Source: a virus (taxonomy: Duplodnaviria > Caudoviricetes). From it: DNA of 64,000 nt. Below are positions 27,863-64,000 of the stretch, piece by piece (the stretch's first letter is position 1; each line of letters begins with the position of its first letter). The stretch covers positions 1-64,000 of the IMG/VR virus record IMGVR_UViG_2772190774_000001; one strand, 5' to 3'. Both the position numbers and the translations under genes were made by a program. Under the pieces are notes generated by a model, which ran no database searches, was not told the DNA's origin, and saw nothing but the letters and a program-made list of their open reading frames with translations.

Positions 27863-30800
27863 CAGGCGTACTCCATCTCAACTTGCCGCAGGGCCTCGCG
27901 CAGGCTCAGCACCAGGGATCTCGTCATGGCCGTCGGGTTAGTGAAGTCCAGGACTCCGTTGACGTTGATGTCACCGGTGAAGGTGATCGACCGACCCGCG
28001 GAAACAGGGGCAGCAACGGGTGCGGCCATTGCTGAGGCGGCGAACCCGGCGGGGGTCACACCGACCGGGCTGGCGGCGGCGCCGATCACGCTCTGGGCCG
28101 CAGAGTGGACCGCCCCCACCCCCGAGGTCAGGCCCCGGGCCAAGCCCTGCGCGATCGACTGACCGGAATACTCCACCCAGCCCCTGCCGCTGAACGGGCC
28201 CTCCTTCGCCGGCGAGAACGGAAACAGCGACCGGATCTTGCCAAGGATGTCGGATGCGGCGTTGTAGGCGTCCTGCAGCATCGAGTACAAACCGTTGATC
28301 AGGCCTTGGATCAGCGACCGGCCCGAGTCGTACAGCATGTTTCCCAGGTTGCCGATGGCGTCCCTAATCCGGCCCGGGATACCGCGGACCGCGTCGAGCA
28401 TGCTGTTGATGCCGTTGCTGACCCCGTTGCGGATGTTGTTCCAGGCGTCTCCGAGGAAGTTCGAGACGGAGTCCCAGCCCCGGTGCCAGGTGTCTTGCAC
28501 GCTGGACAGGGCGCTGCTGATCGCGCCCCGAACGTCGCTGACTGCCCGGTCGATCGCACTGCGGATGTTCGACCAGGTCCGCGACACAAAGTCGGAGACG
28601 CTGTCCCAGGCCCGGTTCCAGCCGGAGGAGATGTCCGACAGGGTGCTGTTGATGCTGTTGCGGACGTTGCCGATCGCGTCGTTCACCCAGTTCTTGATGT
28701 TCGACCAGGTGCTAGACAGAGTGTTGCCGATCGAGTTCCAGCCGCTGTTCCAGTTGGACGAGATCCCGGACAGGAAGCCGCTGATCCCGGACTGGATGGC
28801 GTTCGTCGCGTTAGAGACGGCACCGGTAATGGTGTTCCAGGTCGACGTGAGCAGGTCCTTCGCCCCGGTCCACATCGTGCCCCATTTGTCCCCGATGTCC
28901 GACAGCCACCCGCCGACGCTGATCCTGAGCTGCTCCAGGATTCCGGTGAGAAGCCCCCGTATGGCTTCCCATGTGCCGGAGAACATTTGCTTGACCCCGT
29001 CCCAGGCGCGCTGCCAGTCTCCGGTGATCAAGCCGAGGGCAAGGTTGATGACTCCCTTGATGTAGTTCATGGCGCCATCGATGACCTGGAGAAGGGCCCC
29101 GAACATCGTTCCGATGGTGTCGAGCAGTGGGCCGCCGAAGGTGTCCCAGGCGATGCTGATGAGCTGGAACGCGCCGGAGATGATCTGACCGGCGTTGTTG
29201 ATGATCGAGATGATCCGGTCGCCCCACTGCTGCACGGTGCCCTGGTTGTTCTGGAACCAGACGATGATGTCGCTGACGATCTTGCTGATCAGGTCGCCGA
29301 TCTGCTGGAAGATCGGCATCGCGTTGTCCCGGACCGTCATGATCACCCGCGACAGCCACGAGTCCTCCGACAGTCCCTTCCCGGTCAGCCAGTCCACGGC
29401 CTGCTGAATCCAGCCGACCAGCGTGCTCAGGCCGGGCGCCACATAGTTCGTGACCACGCTGGCGAGGGCCGTCAGGATCGGCCCAGCCAGTTCGACAAGG
29501 GCGGGCAGCAGAGGAGCCACCGCGATCAGAATGTCCGCCAAGGCCATGGCGATGTCGTCCAGGGCGCCCGAGTCGGCCAGCTTCTGTACGGCCAGGCCGA
29601 GACTGTCGAACACGGCGATGATCCCCGGCGCAAGCTTGGCCAGGGCAGGCGCGAGCGCCTCGACCGCGCTAGCAAGGACCGGACCGACCGCCACTGCAAT
29701 ATCTGCGATCTTGGGTGCGAGTACGGCGACCGCACCCACCAGAGCCTCGAACACCGGCATCAACGCCAAGCCGATCCGGTGCAGCGACTGGAAGATCTCT
29801 ACCAGGACCTGCTGGCCCTTCGCCGAGTTGACCCACTTGTTCATGCCGTCGAGCAGAGTGCCGAGGATCCCGAGGGCCCCGGTGCCGGCGTCGCGGGCCG
29901 CCTTGAAGATCCCGTCGAAGATGCCCCAGAGGTCCTTGCCGACGCCCCACACCTGCCGCAGCACGTCGACGGCGTCGTCCAGCCATTTCATGGCCTGACC
30001 GGACTCGGAGATCTTGGACATCCACTGGCCGAAGGTGGTCAGAGAGTCCGTGAGTCCGCTCCGGAAGGACGCCAGCCAGTTCGACCCGACCACCGAGAGG
30101 TCGAGGAACCCGCGCAGCAGCGGCTGCAGCGCCTGCCACACCGCACCCAGCAGGCCGCGGGTGTTTTCCAGGATCGTGTTGAGCTTGACGACGCTCTCCT
30201 GTGCGGAGAAGAAGTCGAGCGCCGTGCGGACCATCCCGCCGAGAGCTGCGGCGATGTCCGCCAGCGCGGGCTTCAGCCCACCCAACGCGCTGGCCCAGAC
30301 CTGCAGCCTGCCCTCAAGCTGGAAGAAGAACGCGTCCTGCGCCGCCGCCTGGAACGACTTGAACGCGGGCAACGCTTTCTCGAACTCGCCCACGAATGCT
30401 TTGGCGGATGGGGTCAGCTTCGCCATCGCTTCTTCGAGGGCTTTGCCGTCGCCGGACCACACGGCGGCCATCGCCGAACCGACCCCGTAGGTCGCGAGTT
30501 TCCACGCGCCGAGCGCTGTGACGCCGGTCATCAGCAACCCGGGCAGGCCGGCCAGCAACCCGCTCACCGGCAACAGCTCAGCGGCCAGAGCTGTCACGTA
30601 CCCGGCGCTGCTCGCGGCGGCGCCCCCCACGGCGGCGATCCCTCCGGCGAGGGTCGCCAACCCCATGGACTTCGTCAGGGCCGACCCAAGACCGGAGAAC
30701 GCGCCGAGAAGCCGCCCCCCAATTCCACCCATCGAGGAGAGAAGACCGTCAGAGACGCCATCGCCGATGTCTTTGCCGTGGCGCCGCCCACGCTCCCGAC

Positions 30801-57585: not shown

Positions 57586-57942
57586 TTACGTGCGGGGCTG
57601 AGATGGTCTGTGAGCGTCCGGGGATACCGAGACACGAGACGGCACCTCTGGGGGCGTCTGCGTGGCGTACAGCCCCGCACACGGGGCGCTGGGGGCGAAC
57701 AGGTGGAGGGCGGCCTCCCACGAACCACGGGCCGCGGTCTCCACCGCCAGGCGCTCCAACACCAACGCCTCATCCGCGGCCCTCGCACGGAACGAGGGCT
57801 CGAACCCCGTCACGTACATCGGCTCCGGCCGATACGAAGACGACGGCGCGCCCGGCTCCGGGTCGGTCGCGGCCGGCGCGTCCCCCGCCGAAACGGCGGT
57901 CAGGTCACGCAACACCCGGGCGGCGAAATCGATCGGGTTCAC
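57586..57942 (-). CDS. Hypothetical protein
   Basis: GGAGG RBS + GTGA coupling. Confidence 0.55.
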   Translation of the reverse strand: MNPIDFAARVLRDLTAVSAGDAPAATDPEPGAPSSSYRPEPMYVTGFEPSFRARAADEALVLERLAVETAARGSWEAALHLFAPSAPCAGLYATQTPPEVPSRVSVSPDAHRPSQPRT

Positions 57943-58670
57943 GACGCCTCCCCAAGCTCGTCGAACAGCGACGGCTGGCACACCCCGGCCGGTGCGGGCA
58001 CCTGCTCGCCGCGCAGGTGCGCTTGGACGTGCTCGCCGACCCAGCGGGAGTACGCCGGCGGGATCGCTTCCCGCAGCCCGTCACGGTTGGCCCACGGCAT
58101 GTCCATGACCTGCCGGGCGAGGGGGACACCGGAGAAGTTGCCGACGACGTGCATGAACTCCCCATCAGCGACGGGGCGGCCCATCTTCGCCGTGGGCGCC
58201 ACATGCCGCGGATGGGCGGGCTGGGTGAGGGTCAAGCCGCCGCCGGGCTCGAACAGGCGGTGCCGGTACGTCCGCAGGCCGAAGGCGGGCATGGCGCCGC
58301 AGAGCATCACCGGGTTGCGGAGTTCCGTGTGGGCTTCCTCGACGTTCTCGATCACCCACGGCAGCCCGATCGCGTTGAGCGCGTCCCGGGTGGGGCCGAT
58401 CAGGTCCGGGTGCTCGCGGCCTTGGATCTTCTGCGCCCGTGAGTAGCGCTGGCACGGCGGCGACGCGTGGACGAACACGAACTCCTCGCGGATCCAGCCG
58501 GCGTTCTGCCGGAGGAATGCGACGGCGTCCGCCTGGATGAATCGCTCCGGGCCGCCGACGTACAACGGCTGGGGGTCGATGTCCACGCCGGTCACGTCGA
58601 ACCCGGCGAGTTCGTAGCCGCGGGAGGCGCCGCCCTGGCAGCAGTACACGTCGAGCACGCGCGGGCTCAT
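57939..58670 (-). CDS. C5-cytosine DNA methyltransferase (orphan, short)
   Basis: Motif I VLDVYCCQGG, GVDI, motif IV HASPPCQ, motif VI VIENV, C-terminal EAIPPAYS. Confidence 0.85.
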   Translation of the reverse strand: MSPRVLDVYCCQGGASRGYELAGFDVTGVDIDPQPLYVGGPERFIQADAVAFLRQNAGWIREEFVFVHASPPCQRYSRAQKIQGREHPDLIGPTRDALNAIGLPWVIENVEEAHTELRNPVMLCGAMPAFGLRTYRHRLFEPGGGLTLTQPAHPRHVAPTAKMGRPVADGEFMHVVGNFSGVPLARQVMDMPWANRDGLREAIPPAYSRWVGEHVQAHLRGEQVPAPAGVCQPSLFDELGEAS

Positions 58671-58792
58671 GCGGCCACCGCCTCGTGTGCGCCCGCGTCC
58701 GCAGCCCACCCGGAGCCGCACCGGCACACCCACTCACCAGGAGCAGCGGGCGGGAACACACCCCCGCATTCGGGGTTCGGGCAGACGATCAC
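58667..58792 (-). CDS. Mini zinc-ribbon protein (41 aa)
   Basis: CPNPECG..WVCRCG; GTGA coupling. Confidence 0.55.
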   Translation of the reverse strand: MIVCPNPECGGVFPPAAPGEWVCRCGSGWAADAGAHEAVAA

Positions 58793-59709: not shown

Positions 59710-60963
59710 TTAGGCGCTGGCTTCTTCGACGGGGAAGCCGCCGTCCCACACGGCCTGCCACGGCCACGGGGACGAGCGCTGCAAGCGGTGGGGCCAGGCG
59801 CGTTCGTCGCGGTCACCGCGGAACCGCTCCACGAACACCTGCATCGGGTTGTTCGGGTCTTTGCGGAGGGCCAGGCCGAACTCCGGCCAGCGCTGCCACA
59901 CACCGGACCCGAGAGGGCGGAGGGACCGCTGCCCGGACTGCTCCATCGGGGCGTGGGTCTCCAGCCACAGGGCGACGCCGTGCCGCTGGCGGAACCCGTC
60001 GAGGACGCGGGCGACCTGCCCGTTGATCGTCTCGGCCTTCTCCCCCGATTCGAGGAACGCCTTGTACAGGGGGCCCATCGCGACGAAGTCCGGGCGGACC
60101 TGCTCGATGACGCGGTCCACGAGGTACTGGTCGTTCGGCTTACGCAGGTCGATCCCGCCGGGCATCGTCCAGCGCCAGCAGCGGTCGTCGTCCCATCCGG
60201 CATCGTTCCGGCCGAGGCTGACCAGATGGCGGGCCTTGCGGCGGATCAGGGCGGGCGGGTTCTCCAGGTCGAGGTACAGCGTCCGGAACGGCGGAATACG
60301 AGTGCCCCACGAGAACGGGTGCAGCCCCGCGGCGCCCATCACGGTGATCTGCCGCGCCCACGTGGTCTTCCCAGCGCCTTCGGACGCGACGACGATCACG
60401 CGGTCCATGCGCTCCAACACGCCAGGGATCAGCCAGTCGTGGTCCTCGTCGGTCTCGTCCACGAACGAGCCCATCGTGGACAGGCCCGACACGTCGCCGT
60501 CGTCGCCTGTGCGGCGCAGCAGGCTCAGGGAATCCTCGGCGGCCTGCACAAGGTCCTCGGGGGTGGTGTCCGCCTCGTAGGCCATCTCGCCCAGGCGGGA
60601 GAACTCCAGCGCGGCGAGCCGCTTCGACCCGAGCATCCGGACGCGGTTGACGTAGAACCCGGCGTTGGCAGCGGTCGGCACCACGGCCGACAGGTCGTGC
60701 AGGAGCATCGCTTTCTTGCCGGCCGGGTCGAGCTTGCCGATGCGCTCCAGCTCGGCGCGCACGGACACGACGTCGATCGGTTCGCCGCGGCGGCGCAGAT
60801 CCGCGATCGCGATGAAGATTTCCTGGTGGACGGGGCGGTAGAAGTCGTCGGCGCCGAGGTGCCCGAGGGCGACAGCTACGGCGTTCGGCGAGATCAGGCA
60901 CGCGCCGAGGACGCACTGTTCGGCCTCGATGTCGTGCGGCAGGGCCCGGAAGTCGTCGGTCAT
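59710..60963 (-). CDS. DnaB-like replicative helicase (DnaB N-domain + RecA-like AAA_25-type domain)
   Basis: LPHDIEAEQCVLGACL; DDFYRPVHQEIF; Walker A ASEGAGKT; YLDLENP. Confidence 0.85.
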   Translation of the reverse strand: MTDDFRALPHDIEAEQCVLGACLISPNAVAVALGHLGADDFYRPVHQEIFIAIADLRRRGEPIDVVSVRAELERIGKLDPAGKKAMLLHDLSAVVPTAANAGFYVNRVRMLGSKRLAALEFSRLGEMAYEADTTPEDLVQAAEDSLSLLRRTGDDGDVSGLSTMGSFVDETDEDHDWLIPGVLERMDRVIVVASEGAGKTTWARQITVMGAAGLHPFSWGTRIPPFRTLYLDLENPPALIRRKARHLVSLGRNDAGWDDDRCWRWTMPGGIDLRKPNDQYLVDRVIEQVRPDFVAMGPLYKAFLESGEKAETINGQVARVLDGFRQRHGVALWLETHAPMEQSGQRSLRPLGSGVWQRWPEFGLALRKDPNNPMQVFVERFRGDRDERAWPHRLQRSSPWPWQAVWDGGFPVEEASA

Positions 60964-61994
60964 CGGTGGTTGAACTCCCTCGGTGCGACCTCCTGCACGG
61001 CGTCCCACCGCCAGTGGTCGTCATTGCTTGTGGCGGTCTCGTCGTTCCAGCGCTCCCCGTTCAGCCACGTCGTGGGGTGCGGGGTGTACTCGGTGCCGCG
61101 GGCCTGCCGCATCGGGTTGTCCCGGAACCGCTCAGCCGCGGCGACGATCGCCTGCGGGTCGGCCCGCTTGACGGCCTTGACCCAGGCGGCGCGGGCGTGG
61201 CCCTTGTCGACCTTGCGGGGGTACGCCTTCCAGAACGCGACGAAGGCGGGGTCCTGGTCGCTGCCGGGCTGGAAGGTGGGTTTCTTCTGGGCGGCTTCGA
61301 GGTGGATCAAGACTCCGTCGCCGGAGGCGTCGGCATCAGCCGGGGCGGCGGCATCGTCGCCGGGTTCTACCGAAGTACGGTCTTTAACTTCTTCACCTAC
61401 AACAGCAACAACAACGGAGGGTTGGCCCATGGGTTCGCCCGAGGGTTGCTGGAAGGGTTCCGCCAAGGGTTCGCCAGGGGTTCCGGGAACCGTTCCGGGA
61501 AGGGTTGGGCTAACCCTTACGGGAACCCTTGGCCTAAGGGTTTCGATAACCCTTCCGATCGACTCCCGCATCTCGTCGGCCTTCTTGCCAGACAGGCCAG
61601 CGACCGGCAGCCGGGCGAACTCCTCAGCGAGCGTCGCCCGGATCGCCTGAGACCTGACCATCGAGGCGTCTCGGATGATGCTCTTCAGGACGTTGGGGAT
61701 CTTCCAGGCGTCGTCCCAGCGGATGTAGGTGCGGACGAGGATCTCGTCATGCTCCTCATCCACCACCACGTAACGGCGCTCGTGCAGTACCGAGAGGTCC
61801 GCCTTGAGATCGGGCACCGTGAAGTCAACGGCGCAGCCGGTGAGCCGTCGATCGGTAGTGGTGACGACGCCGGCGAAGGTGAGTTCCGGCTGACTGATCA
61901 GCGTGAAGTACAGCCACTGCTGATGGCGTGTCAGCGAGCGGAAGTCGGCGTCGGCCCAGATCTCGTTGTAGATCTTGGCGAAGCTTCCGGCCAC
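60960..61994 (-). CDS. Phage replication initiator (lambda O/DnaD-like architecture)
   Basis: N-terminal wHTH (IWADADFRSL..LYF.LIS); low-complexity linker; C-domain FVAFWKAYPRKVDKG.A..AW; PHPTTWLNGERW. Confidence 0.8.
   Translation of the reverse strand: MAGSFAKIYNEIWADADFRSLTRHQQWLYFTLISQPELTFAGVVTTTDRRLTGCAVDFTVPDLKADLSVLHERRYVVVDEEHDEILVRTYIRWDDAWKIPNVLKSIIRDASMVRSQAIRATLAEEFARLPVAGLSGKKADEMRESIGRVIETLRPRVPVRVSPTLPGTVPGTPGEPLAEPFQQPSGEPMGQPSVVVAVVGEEVKDRTSVEPGDDAAAPADADASGDGVLIHLEAAQKKPTFQPGSDQDPAFVAFWKAYPRKVDKGHARAAWVKAVKRADPQAIVAAAERFRDNPMRQARGTEYTPHPTTWLNGERWNDETATSNDDHWRWDAVQEVAPREFNHR
61418..61554. repeat. Iteron cluster (about 10 copies of AAGGGTT-like heptamer, both orientations) inside rep gene; candidate origin
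   Basis: AGGGTT 61418, 61442; AAGGGTT 61453, 61465, 61500, 61536; AACCCTT 61512, 61524, 61548; adjacent AT-richer tract 61381-61415. Confidence 0.65.
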
Positions 61995-62143
61995 GGTGGG
62001 TGCTCCAGGTGATTCGAGGTTGAGGGGACAGCCCGATTGCTGAGGGGCGGAGTGAGGGTCAGGTCGTGCGTCGGTTCTTGGGCATGGCAAATAGACCCCC
62101 TGTCGGGTGCGATTCCCCTGACCACGCGGGGACTTGCGCCCAG

Positions 62144-62216
62144 CGTGTATATCCACGAGCATAGCCATCATGGATATACACGGCAAGGTTGCTGACCAGA
62201 CCCTTGGATATGCACG
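62144..62216. promoter_or_regulatory. Divergent promoter region with operator repeats
   Basis: CGTGTATATCCA 62144-55 / TGGATATACACG 62171-82 inverted repeat plus variant TGGATATGCACG 62205-16. Confidence 0.65.
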
Positions 62217-62223
62217 GGCTACG

Positions 62224-62424
62224 ATGTGCCACGTGAAGGACACCCACACGCCGCACCGCCCCATCCGGGTCGAGGACGACCTGTGGGAGGAGTTCGGCCG
62301 TCTTGTCGGCCCCCGGAACCGCTCGGCGGTGATCCGGGAGTTCATCCGCTGGTTCGTGCGTGAGCGTGGGGCGAAGCTCCCCGAGCGTCCGCCGCGGCAG
62401 GAGCTCGCCGCCGGCGAGTCCTGA
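62224..62424 (+). CDS. Ribbon-helix-helix (Arc/ParG-like) regulator
   Basis: TPHRPIRVEDDLWEEFG..VG..NRSAVIREFIRWFV. Confidence 0.8.
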   Translation: MCHVKDTHTPHRPIRVEDDLWEEFGRLVGPRNRSAVIREFIRWFVRERGAKLPERPPRQELAAGES

Positions 62425-62483
62425 TGTGTCACCCCCGGGGCCGGTCACCAAGTGACCGGCCCCCTTCGCATGCCCGCGCCCGA

Positions 62484-62954
62484 TCACGACCGGGGCCACC
62501 TCTCGACGTGGATCCCGGCCTTCTCCGCCCGGTCGATGGCGTCGCTCGCCCCGTGTGAGCCGTGCGGTTTCGGCTTGCGGCAAGTCCGCTGCGTGCACGG
62601 CAGGACGAACGCCAAGCAGACGTCGGCGCCGAGGTCGACCATGAGCTGGTTGCGGAGATGGCCGGCCGTCGGGCAGTACGTCGACCCGTCGCGCCGCTTC
62701 AGGCGGTGGGTGGGGGTGCACTTGGGTCCGGCGCAGGTGTCCCAGTCCGCGGGGTGGCGCTCCCGGGTGATGCCCAGGTGGGTGAAGCGGCGGCACCACC
62801 AGTCGGCGATGGCGTCCGCTCCTGTGGGGCAGGCGCCGTGGACGACGACCATGGGGCCGTTCGCCTGGTAGCGGGCCTGGACAAGGGCGTCCCGGACGAC
62901 GTCGAGGTCCTTCCATGACCGGGACCCGGTGATGAGCACGCGGTAGGGGCTCAC
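62484..62954 (-). CDS. SLOG-family (DUF2493/YspA-like) protein
   Basis: RVLITGSRSW; VVHGACPTGAD; HPADW; AGHLRNQLMV; CLAF; HGA. Confidence 0.85.
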   Translation of the reverse strand: MSPYRVLITGSRSWKDLDVVRDALVQARYQANGPMVVVHGACPTGADAIADWWCRRFTHLGITRERHPADWDTCAGPKCTPTHRLKRRDGSTYCPTAGHLRNQLMVDLGADVCLAFVLPCTQRTCRKPKPHGSHGASDAIDRAEKAGIHVERWPRS

Positions 62955-62975: not shown

Positions 62976-63703
62976 GGCGCGGGCGGGTGCGGATTGGTCA
63001 GGACAGGTCAGAGAAGGCATGTCGCGGCGGGTGTGGGAGGTCCCAGGGATGAGCCAGGGAACGGGTAGTCGGGGTGGGCCGGTCCGGGTGGGGTTGGCTT
63101 GTCGGCACGGGCCGGGTGGGGATGGCATGGCACGTCGGCGAGGACAGAGGTGGGGTGGCGAGGTCGGTGATGGCCCGGGTAGGCGAGTCGGCATGAGTCG
63201 GGTCGGGGCGCTCGTGTGCAGGACTGGCATGTCGGGTCGGGTTGCCAGGTGGTAAGGCTCGGCTCGTCGGGCTGGGCTGAGATGCGGCGGTTGTGACATG
63301 TCGGCACGTCTCGGCCTGGGTTGGGCTGTCGGCTTGGAGAGTCGAGAAGCGGCGAGGTATGTCGGCACGGCCTGGTTCGGGACGGAACGGATAGTCGCCA
63401 TGGGGTCGGGAGGTACGGCTCCGGCGCGGCTTGAGCGAGGCATGTCGGACAGGCGCGGCAGGAGTGGGCTGACTCGGGGAGACTTGGCTTGTCGGCGTGT
63501 TGAGGGAAGCCGTGGCCTGGCATGTCGCCGTGGCTAGGCAGGCGGAGGCTTGGCTTGTCGGCGAGGCTCGGCGAGGACGGGCGTGGGATGGACTGTCGGC
63601 AAGCGAAGGAAGGGTTGGGCTTGTCGGCGAGGCTGGGCCAGGACGGCGGTGGGGTGGACTGTCGGCGTGAGGCGGAGGCAGGGCTGAACAGGCTCGCGTA
63701 GTC
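62976..63703. ncRNA. Array of GGNNN pentamers punctuated by GTC (18 units); candidate guide-RNA array
   Basis: GTC at 63021, 63068, 63101, 63134, 63187, 63231, 63266, 63300, 63328, 63361, 63394, 63444, 63491, 63524, 63557, 63595, 63623, 63661, 63701; 11 of 18 spacings equal 3+5n; transcribed strand unknown. Confidence 0.6.
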
Positions 63704-63774
63704 GCATGGGCTAGCCGCACGAGCGGCGTCGCAGACGTTCACCAGAACCCCCAGGTACAGTCAGTTGGTGGGAG

Positions 63775-63799
63775 GGGCCCCAGCCGTGTGCTGGGGCCC
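63775..63799 (-). terminator. Hairpin between the RAMP-like gene and the array
   Basis: GGGCCCCAGC-CGTGT-GCTGGGGCCC, 11 nt after the stop codon. Confidence 0.6.
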
Positions 63800-63810
63800 T
63801 ACGCGTTTCG

Positions 63811-63999
63811 TCAGGCCCGGTCGAACGCGAGCAGCTCGAACCGGCCATCGGACCGGCCGCGGTCGGAGCCGATGCCGATCTGCTCGCCGGCCTGCCAGAT
63901 GCGGGACCACGCCTGCATGGGGAGGAAGTCGTCCCGGACCCGGAGGGTGAAGGTCAGCTCGGGTTCCTGGACGTACTCGACGCGGTTGATCGACGAGCG
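63811..63999 (-). CDS. 3' end of a RAMP/Cas7-like protein (5' part outside window)
   Basis: My translation: RSSINRVEYVQEPELTFTLRVRDDFLPMQAWSRIWQAGEQIGIGSDRGRSDGRFELLAFDRA*; beta-helix-G-loop G.G..R...GRF typical of RAMP C-termini. Confidence 0.6.
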   Translation of the reverse strand, partial: RSSINRVEYVQEPELTFTLRVRDDFLPMQAWSRIWQAGEQIGIGSDRGRSDGRFELLAFDRA

Positions 64000-64000
64000 C

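What the first reader, a model, noticed from the sequence alone, without database searches (positions are those of the whole stretch)
63775..64000. Solo RAMP/Cas7-like gene in a prophage early region, linked to the array
The frame 63999-63811 encodes ...EYV..PELTFTL.V...W..IWQAGEQIGIGSDRGRSDGRFEL, a strand-helix-glycine-rich-loop ending like RAMP (Cas7/Csm3/Csf2) proteins. No CRISPR repeats or other cas genes are in the window. A terminator-like hairpin separates it from the array, suggesting the array is its own transcript. Cas7 proteins polymerise along RNA with a fixed nucleotide step (established), which would explain the periodicity. Together they are the best candidate for a minimal RNA-guided system for inter-phage competition or gene silencing (inference). 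Only 62 residues are visible.
Basis: partly seen in the sequence, partly recalled or inferred. Interest (0 to 1): 0.88.

Follow-up and report, generated by a model that had tools for sequence, protein, structure and literature searches.

The report
Phage Vipr (Cas7-like) guide-RNA protein
The gene fragment at the window's edge is the end of a 237-residue Cas7-like protein of a prophage VIPR system, a CRISPR-related RNA-guided DNA silencer first described in 2026 preprints. It is a further member of a known kind, with one open question: which DNA strand of its repeat array gives the guide RNA.

Summary
Window 63811-63999 (- strand) holds the last 62 codons of a 237-aa gene (record 63811-64524). 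Its AlphaFold model (pLDDT 89) matches Cas7-type RAMPs only (Csm3 Z 12.7). The 73.7-kb provirus has no CRISPR array, Cas1 or second RAMP.

A profile of this protein's family matches the profile of the characterised SUSP1 Vipr family (hhalign 93%, E 3.5e-7). Pentamer arrays lie beside the gene in all six lineages examined. Between close relatives, the array varies at pentamer positions 3-5 and not at GG.

This locus differs from the characterised type II:
- units are short (GTC plus 5-7 GGNNN) and have no 3' tail;
- pentamer position 3 is not restricted to pyrimidines;
- three of the four G-contacting residues of SUSP1 Vipr are not conserved;
- the partner gene lies upstream and is unrelated to vap1;
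- the G-rich strand is always antisense to the gene.

Strand, RNA ends and targets remain unshown. This scan has met the same 'antisense short-unit' form in other genomes. Verdict: new member of a known kind, moderate interest.

The parts
63811..64000 (-). 3' part (last 62 codons plus stop) of the vipr-like gene. The full gene is 63811-64524 of the record, 237 aa, and runs off the window.
   Evidence: ORF and translation; GC3 0.95; AF2 pLDDT 89; Foldseek and VIA-align top hits are all Cas7-family RAMPs; hhalign to the SUSP1 Vipr family 93%, E 3.5e-7
63775..63799 (.). G+C-rich hairpin (10-bp stem, 5-nt loop) between the gene's stop codon and the array. It is stable on both strands, and a short T run (TACGCGTTTC) follows it only on the + strand.
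   Evidence: In relative L008 the hairpin, the spacer and the array stay together as a block behind an extra inserted 96-aa ORF.
63703..63774 (.). Non-repetitive spacer between the array and the hairpin, conserved with the array block in L008.
62976..63730 (.). Pentamer array. On the + strand it holds about 20 units of GTC followed by 5-7 (some degenerate) GGNNN pentamers, giving unit lengths of 28, 33 or 38 nt. The C-rich complement is on the gene's strand. This is the candidate vrRNA array, and the strand of the RNA is unresolved.
   Evidence: variation at positions 3-5 only; hypervariable between relatives; no other such tract in the provirus

Best explanation
The gene encodes a Vipr-type RAMP, a single-RRM Cas7-like protein. 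With the adjacent pentamer array it forms a prophage-borne VIPR system. The mechanism below is inferred by analogy with the characterised type II systems. RNA from the array is cut or bounded at the GTC (GUC) motifs into short guides. Vipr protomers polymerise along each guide, one per 5-nt repeat, holding the conserved GG with helix 1, thumb and Gly-rich loop. The variable bases are left exposed to read double-stranded DNA in a gapped code. Binding silences transcription of the target, most likely in rival phages or prophages. Shown here: the fold, the profile-level kinship to SUSP1 Vipr, the conserved gene-array linkage, the scaffold/variable substitution pattern of the array, and the absence of CRISPR or other cas genes. 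Inferred: RNP formation, which strand is the guide, the processing step, the pairing rule and the targets. The upstream 143-aa all-helical gene overlaps the vipr start and is conserved in close relatives. It is a candidate accessory (vap-like) gene by position only.
For: - Fold: AF2 pLDDT 89, pTM 0.83. Foldseek against PDB gives Csm3, type VII Cas7, Cas7-11 and Cmr4 at E 1e-7 to 1e-5, prob 1.00. VIA-align against 48,161 chains gives Csm3 Z 12.7, and 29 of the top 30 rows are CRISPR RAMPs of the Cas7/Cas5 group, the rest Cmr1.
- Kinship: the profile of this family (A1, 63 sequences) against the profile of the SUSP1 Vipr family (A2, 29 sequences) gives Prob 93%, E 3.5e-7 over 127 columns, from helix 1 through the thumb to the G-loop. 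Invariant R222 aligns with SUSP1 R179.
- Published VIPR biology.
- Array: 5-nt periodicity and GTC+(GGNNN)5-7 units. Between orthologous arrays, mismatches fall on positions 3-5 (11-22%) and not on GG (3-8%) or GTC (4-7%). Only 1 of 34 clean units is shared between relatives.
- Linkage: arrays lie next to the gene in 15 close loci, in Mae-JY09, and in L020, L023, L024 and L029.
- Viral setting: provirus record, ESM Atlas nearest clusters 98-100% viral, BFVD viral RAMP-like matches.
- No CRISPR or cas genes.
Against: - No direct sequence hit to SUSP1 Vipr. Profile against the single SUSP1 sequence is weak.
- Three of the four G-contacting residues that the structure paper names for SUSP1 Vipr (H17, D177, W178) are not conserved here.
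- The G-rich strand is antisense to the gene, unlike SUSP1 and the actinobacterial type II loci.
- Units carry only 5-7 repeats, against 9-16, and have no 3' tail.
- No target enrichment: 10 perfect matches against 7.2 +/- 2.4 for shuffled guides in 240 kb; 109 against 117 IMG/VR hits for one guide and its permuted control.
- The preprint's supplementary tables were not available. I could not check whether this family is among its seven types.
Confidence: 0.85

Rival explanations
1. It is the same VIPR-like system, but the guide is the C-rich sense transcript (NNNCC pentamers bounded by GAC). It would be co-transcribed with the vipr operon, so this Vipr lineage would hold CC rather than GG.
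For: In all six lineages examined the C-rich strand is the gene's strand, whether the array is downstream (close clade, Mae-JY09, L020) or upstream (L023, L024, L029). Type II loci keep the G-rich strand on the gene strand. In both groups, therefore, orientation is constrained, as co-transcription would predict. SUSP1's H17, D177 and W178 are not conserved. Here the array runs to within about 22 nt of the next gene's start codon on the same strand, so the C-rich strand is probably transcribed as that gene's leader. In Mae-JY09 the only hairpin lies after the array on the gene strand.
Against: All published VIPR types use G-based repeats: GGY/NN, NNNGG, YNNNG, NNNNG. A stable hairpin separates gene and array here and in L020, and it carries a T run only in the G-strand direction. 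In L007 and L020 the array lies between convergent genes. No promoter could be called on either strand.
Confidence: 0.4
2. The array is a DNA element (replication-origin iterons or a partition site) of the prophage, and the RAMP-like protein has an unrelated function.
For: The 33-bp spacing is about three helical turns. The tract lies just upstream of the replication module, which includes a DnaB-like helicase at 59710-61008.
Against: Units are hypervariable between prophages whose proteins are 85-90% identical, which is not expected of sites that must match an initiator. Variation is confined to three of five positions. The array travels with the vipr-like gene into unrelated neighbourhoods and to either side of it.
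Confidence: 0.04
3. The protein is a lone Cas7 mimic acting as an anti-CRISPR, poisoning host type I/III complexes, and the array is incidental.
For: It has a Cas7 fold without any cas partner, in a phage early region.
Against: Its profile is closer to Vipr (E 3.5e-7) than to any CRISPR RAMP sequence. The best PDB profile hit is the Csm4 G-loop at E 0.054. No member reaches the Pfam RAMPs threshold. The strict linkage to pentamer arrays is left unexplained.
Confidence: 0.03
4. The tract encodes a Pro/Ser/Thr-rich repeat protein. ORFs of 240-244 aa are open on the - strand.
For: Long open frames at 62998-63720 and 63008-63742 on the - strand.
Against: There is no period-3 signal, whereas neighbouring genes show a strong one. 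Unit lengths of 28, 33 and 38 nt break any frame. The frames fail the GC3/GC2 coding test. A C-rich strand lacks stop codons by composition alone.
Confidence: 0.01

Closest known systems
Type II VIPR of Escherichia phage SUSP1 (KT454805.2: vipr 28474-29061, vap1 28031-28471) and the P. fulva prophage; bioRxiv 10.64898/2026.04.26.720920, .720927 and 10.64898/2026.10.15.759431
   Same: A small single-RRM RAMP with G-loop and thumb. Profile-level homology, with R222 matching R179. A phage or prophage location. A two-gene operon next to long non-coding tracts of 5-nt repeats with conserved GG and variable remaining bases. No CRISPR array or cas genes.
   Different: 237 aa against 195 aa, with no direct sequence hit. 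H17, D177 and W178 are not conserved. The partner gene is upstream, all-helical and unrelated to vap1. Units are GTC plus 5-7 repeats without a structured 3' tail, against 9-16 repeats plus a tail. Position 3 is C 48, G 26, A 13, T 13% and so not a strict pyrimidine. The G-rich strand is antisense to the gene.
Other VIPR forms named in the preprints: 'staggered' arrays with abutting vrRNAs, NNNGG-type repeats, and non-canonical repeat units (10.64898/2026.04.26.720920 methods and fig. S18 legend; 10.64898/2026.10.21.760802)
   Same: Units abut with no spacer or tail. There are three variable positions per pentamer.
   Different: Only legends and text were readable, so I could not verify that this family or its antisense polarity is among them.
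Csm3 / Cmr4 / type VII Cas7 / Csf2 (Cas7 backbone subunits of class 1 CRISPR effectors)
   Same: Best structural matches: Z 12.7-9.7 over about 150 aligned residues covering the RRM core, thumb hairpin and G-rich loop.
   Different: 8-18% identity. No Pfam RAMPs hit. No crRNA repeats, Cas5/6/10/11 or adaptation genes. Cas7 steps by 6 nt on an unpatterned spacer, whereas Vipr steps by 5 nt on a patterned repeat.

Membership tests
VIPR system (Vipr + vrRNA, usually + vap) | Vipr is a minimal RAMP: one RRM core, a glycine-rich loop and a thumb | tested here: met
   The AF2 model shows strand 13-22, helix 103-117, a long hairpin 161-186, helix 203-216, loop 217-228 and strand 229-236. Cas7-family matches.
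VIPR system (Vipr + vrRNA, usually + vap) | Sequence kinship to a characterised Vipr | tested here: met
   hhalign A1 against A2 (SUSP1 family, which includes the marine-sediment protein that is probably the preprint's seed): Prob 93%, E 3.5e-7, 127 columns. Single-sequence searches fail.
VIPR system (Vipr + vrRNA, usually + vap) | Tandem pentanucleotide repeats beside the gene, with conserved GG(Y) and hypervariable remaining bases | tested here: met
   Position 3 is only 61% pyrimidine, so the repeat fits NNNGG better than GGY/NN.
VIPR system (Vipr + vrRNA, usually + vap) | Non-CRISPR context: no CRISPR array, no other cas genes; viral or proviral location | tested here: met
VIPR system (Vipr + vrRNA, usually + vap) | Accessory vap gene in a two-gene operon | tested here: inconclusive
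   A 143-aa gene overlaps the vipr start and is conserved in 13 close loci. It has no similarity to vap1, to any solved fold, or to the 160-183-aa genes at the same position in distant members.
VIPR system (Vipr + vrRNA, usually + vap) | Array RNA is expressed, bound by Vipr, and directs DNA binding by the 1-nt-skip rule | not testable with these tools
   In silico target searches gave no enrichment. Guides specify only 10-14 bases under the published rule.
Type II VIPR (SUSP1 clade) | vrRNA of 9-16 YNNGG repeats followed by a conserved structured 3' tail, on the same strand as vipr; vipr followed by vap1 | tested here: not met
   There are 5-7 repeats per unit and no tail. The G-rich strand is antisense in six lineages, whereas SUSP1, Rhodococcus and Streptomyces type II loci are sense. 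The partner gene is upstream and unrelated.
Type II VIPR (SUSP1 clade) | G-contact residues H17, R138, D177, W178 and pyrimidine-pocket R179 | tested here: inconclusive
   The R179 equivalent (R222) is invariant. The D177 and W178 equivalents are S/A and variable. H17 lies outside the aligned region, and the R138 equivalent is not conserved. The alignment is remote.
CRISPR-Cas Cas7 (Csm3/Cmr4/Csf2) | Cas7 fold | tested here: met
CRISPR-Cas Cas7 (Csm3/Cmr4/Csf2) | Encoded with other cas genes and a CRISPR array; matches curated RAMP models | tested here: not met
   No Pfam hit for the protein. Only 2 of 63 relatives give weak sub-threshold PF03787 hits. There is no Cas1, RAMP or CRISPR array in the provirus.

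The most novel reading that the evidence does not exclude
In this whole Vipr lineage the functional guide would be the C-rich sense transcript (NNNCC pentamers bounded by GAC). That would mean a RAMP that has switched from holding GG to holding CC. Failing that, the lineage obligatorily makes its guides antisense to its own operon. Either would be an undescribed variant of VIPR guide biogenesis or recognition.
Probability: 0.4. Interest if true: 0.65.

Novelty: new member of a known kind. Interest (0 to 1): 0.4.

Why it matters
The locus shows that VIPR-type RNA-guided silencers are common in prophages of filamentous actinomycetes (Microbispora, Nonomuraea, Streptosporangium). This Vipr family has 692 clusters at 50% identity in the library searched and carries no Pfam or PHROG annotation. 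The lineage differs from the characterised type in unit length, in its boundary motif and, consistently, in array polarity. One strand-specific RNA experiment on it would therefore show whether the GG-holding mechanism is universal. For annotation, genes of this family should be called Vipr-like RAMPs rather than 'hypothetical'. The flanking 'ORFs' across the arrays should not be called as genes.

Tried and rejected
- Pfam and PHROGs on the protein, and Pfam on its partner: no hits.
- PDB sequence search: nothing with the single sequence, and only a Csm4 G-loop at E 0.054 with the profile.
- tblastn against cultured phages: one hit, Mae-JY09.
- A1 profile against the SUSP1 genome: no hit.
- Target search. 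34 clean guides were tested under seven pairing models (positions 4-5 with 0-3 skipped bases; positions 3-5 with 0-2) against 240 kb (the own provirus plus 14 related loci). No model beat shuffled guides.
- IMG/VR exact scans of the 7-repeat unit at 63557. There were 0 hits for both three-base models. The published NN+1-skip pattern gave 109 hits, against 117 for a permuted control.
- Promoter scans on both strands here and in two lower-GC relatives: none called.
- Hairpin positions across lineages gave conflicting hints about the strand.
- Fold search of the 143-aa partner: no match with E <= 0.001.
- Partner genes of distant members are not homologous to it.
- Rfam, including ribozymes, on the array: nothing credible.
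- The preprint's supplementary tables are not held, so the VIPR type (I-VII) could not be assigned.
- The origin/iteron, anti-CRISPR decoy and repeat-protein readings were rejected, as set out under the rival explanations.

Full report
**What is there.** The window is bases 1-64000 of a 73,672-base, 69% G+C provirus record. It has an ATG start and third-position G+C of 0.95. Its start overlaps the stop of a 143-codon gene (64521-64952, -).

On the gene's strand, the order downstream of the stop codon is:
- a 10-bp G+C hairpin (63775-63799; -24.5 kcal/mol on the - strand and -27.3 on the + strand);
- a spacer of about 70 nt;
- a non-coding tract of about 750 nt (about 62976-63730);
- immediately after it, the ribosome-binding site of a SLOG/YAcAr-domain gene (62484-62954).

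Further along lie an Arc-like gene on the opposite strand, a replication protein and a DnaB-like helicase. Upstream of the pair is a Bro-N/KilAC antirepressor. This is the early region of a temperate phage.

**The protein.** Pfam, PHROGs and PDB sequence searches give nothing for the single sequence. The family is nevertheless large. It has 346 near-length homologues, the named ones all 'hypothetical protein' of Microbispora, Nonomuraea, Streptosporangium, Actinomadura and relatives. It has 692 cluster representatives at E <= 0.001 in the 50%-identity library. Its ESM Atlas neighbours are 98-100% viral.

A 63-sequence alignment (A1) shows a conserved helix motif, EGR..KA.LKE, and a C-terminal G.G..R....G.F loop with an invariant arginine (R222). 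The AlphaFold model built on A1 is confident (pLDDT 89.3, pTM 0.83).
- Foldseek against the PDB returns Csm3, type VII Cas7, Cas7-11/gRAMP and Cmr4, at E 1e-7 to 1e-5 and probability 1.00.
- An independent all-against-all VIA-align run returns Csm3 at Z 12.7, followed by Cas7-11, Cmr4, type VII Cas7, Csf2 and type I Cas7. All but one of the first thirty rows are CRISPR RAMPs.
- A few viral predicted structures match as well, among them archaeal-virus proteins.

**No CRISPR.** Tandem Repeats Finder, Rfam, and Pfam Cas1 and RAMPs searches of the whole record find no CRISPR array and no other cas gene. The gene is single copy.

**The array.** On the + strand the tract parses into about 20 units of GTC followed by 5-7 pentamers GGNNN, some of them degenerate. 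This gives unit lengths of 28, 33 and 38 nt and explains the 5-nt-quantised spacing of the GTCGG motif.
- Identity autocorrelation is 0.44 at lag 5 and 0.39 at lag 10, against about 0.27 background. There is no period-3 signal.
- Across 14 related arrays, pentamer position 3 is C 48%, G 26%, A 13%, T 13%. Positions 4 and 5 are near-random.
- Orthologous arrays were aligned between prophages whose proteins are 87-91% identical. Mismatches are 3-8% at the two Gs, 4-7% at GTC and 11-22% at positions 3-5.
- Only one of 34 clean units is shared between loci. At 84% protein identity the arrays no longer align.

The pattern is a conserved scaffold carrying fast-changing information. That is expected of guides, and not of iterons or of a coding repeat.

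**Linkage.** All 15 close loci from IMG/VR and from Streptosporangiaceae genomes carry such an array just downstream of the gene. So do Microcystis phage Mae-JY09 (34% identity) and a metagenomic relative at 38% (L020). In three other distant relatives (L023, L024, L029; 34-36%) the array lies just upstream. The GAC/GTC boundary motif is kept at these distances.

**What it is.** A note from an earlier agent of this scan on the array itself pointed to the VIPR preprints, which I then read. VIPR systems consist of three parts:
- a Vipr protein, a minimal RAMP found by structure search and proposed to be ancestral to Cas5/6/7;
- usually one accessory gene (vap);
- vrRNAs made of tandem pentamers with conserved GGY and hypervariable NN.

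One Vipr protomer binds each repeat. The NN bases read double-stranded DNA with one base skipped per repeat. Binding silences transcription. Natural targets are rival phages, satellites and prophages. Seven types are described, including abutting ('staggered') arrays and NNNGG-type repeats.

I fetched the SUSP1 locus. The 195-aa gene at 28474-29061 of KT454805.2 fits the residue numbering in the structure paper (H17, E71, M72, R138, C173, D177, W178, R179). It is flanked by GGTNN repeats on its own strand. Direct searches do not connect that protein with ours. A profile of its family (A2) does match A1, at 93% probability and E 3.5e-7 over 127 columns. The match runs from helix 1 through the thumb to the G-loop, with R222 aligned to R179. 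Fold, context and array agree with this, so I file the locus under VIPR with about 85% confidence.

**How this lineage differs from the characterised type II.**
- Units are short and have no structured 3' tail.
- Position 3 is not restricted to pyrimidines.
- The SUSP1 residues that hold the guanines (H17, D177, W178) are not conserved.
- The partner gene is upstream. It is all-helical (pLDDT 74) with no fold match. It is related neither to vap1 nor to the 160-183-aa genes at the same position in distant members.
- In all six lineages the C-rich strand is the gene's strand, whichever side the array lies on. In SUSP1 and in type II loci of Rhodococcus and Streptomyces the G-rich strand is the gene's strand.

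Either guides are made antisense to the operon in this lineage, or the guide here is the C-rich sense RNA. The evidence is mixed.
- For antisense G-rich guides: every published type is G-based. A hairpin separates gene and array here and in L020. The hairpin travels with the array in L008, and only in the G direction is it followed by a short T run.
- For sense C-rich guides: orientation is constrained, as co-transcription would predict. The array abuts the next gene's ribosome-binding site, so it is probably transcribed as that gene's leader. Mae-JY09 has its only hairpin after the array.
- No promoter could be called on either strand.

I leave this at roughly even odds. Earlier agents of this scan reached the same open question on other genomes.

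**Targets.** Under the published rule a unit specifies only 10-14 bases.
- In 240 kb of the own provirus and related loci, 34 guides gave 10 perfect matches, against 7.2 +/- 2.4 for shuffled guides. No alternative pairing model did better.
- In IMG/VR, the 7-repeat unit gave 109 exact hits against 117 for a permuted control. It gave no hits under the three-base models.

Targets therefore remain unknown. The search was too weak to count against the model.

**Verdict.** The kind of system has been known since April 2026, and this scan has met it often. This locus is a further member, of a short-unit form whose array polarity is opposite to the characterised type. Interest is moderate. It rests on the strand question and on the breadth of this unannotated family in actinomycete prophages.

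Noticed in passing
window 57939-58733 (-): A 264-aa ORF carries cytosine-5 DNA methyltransferase-like motifs: CCQGGAS near the N-terminus and SPPCQRYS. It gave no Pfam hit at E <= 0.01. It may be a divergent phage C5-methyltransferase.
   Followed up: no
window 62484-62954 (-): A 156-aa SLOG-family protein (PF10686 YAcAr, E 1.9e-14; phrog_289) with a Cys-rich C-terminal half lies directly downstream of the array. The array runs to within about 22 nt of its GTG start.
   Followed up: partly
window 62134-62424 (+), hairpin about 62430-62465: A small gene on the opposite strand has a weak Arc-like repressor match (phrog_6506, E 0.015) and is followed by a hairpin. In relatives L005, L007 and L011 a small opposite-strand gene, or its terminator, abuts the far end of the array directly.
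   Followed up: partly
L008 6731-7021 (+): In one close relative a 96-codon ORF is inserted between the vipr stop and the hairpin. The hairpin, spacer and array are kept intact behind it.
   Followed up: partly
L018 (Microcystis phage Mae-JY09, PP395641.1): The 5.3-kb end of this record that I examined is about 67-79% G+C. From memory, Microcystis aeruginosa is near 42% G+C. The stated host may therefore be wrong, and the phage may belong to an associated high-G+C bacterium.
   Followed up: no
L023 459-1172; window 62998-63742 (-): Gene callers and ORF lists report 237-244-aa 'proteins' across the C-rich arrays. These are artefacts of a strand poor in stop codons.
   Followed up: yes
record 71361-72134 (-), outside the window (L030 7361-8134): A Bro-N plus KilAC antirepressor (E 1.5e-25 and 1.3e-16) lies at the head of the same early leftward gene block.
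   Followed up: no
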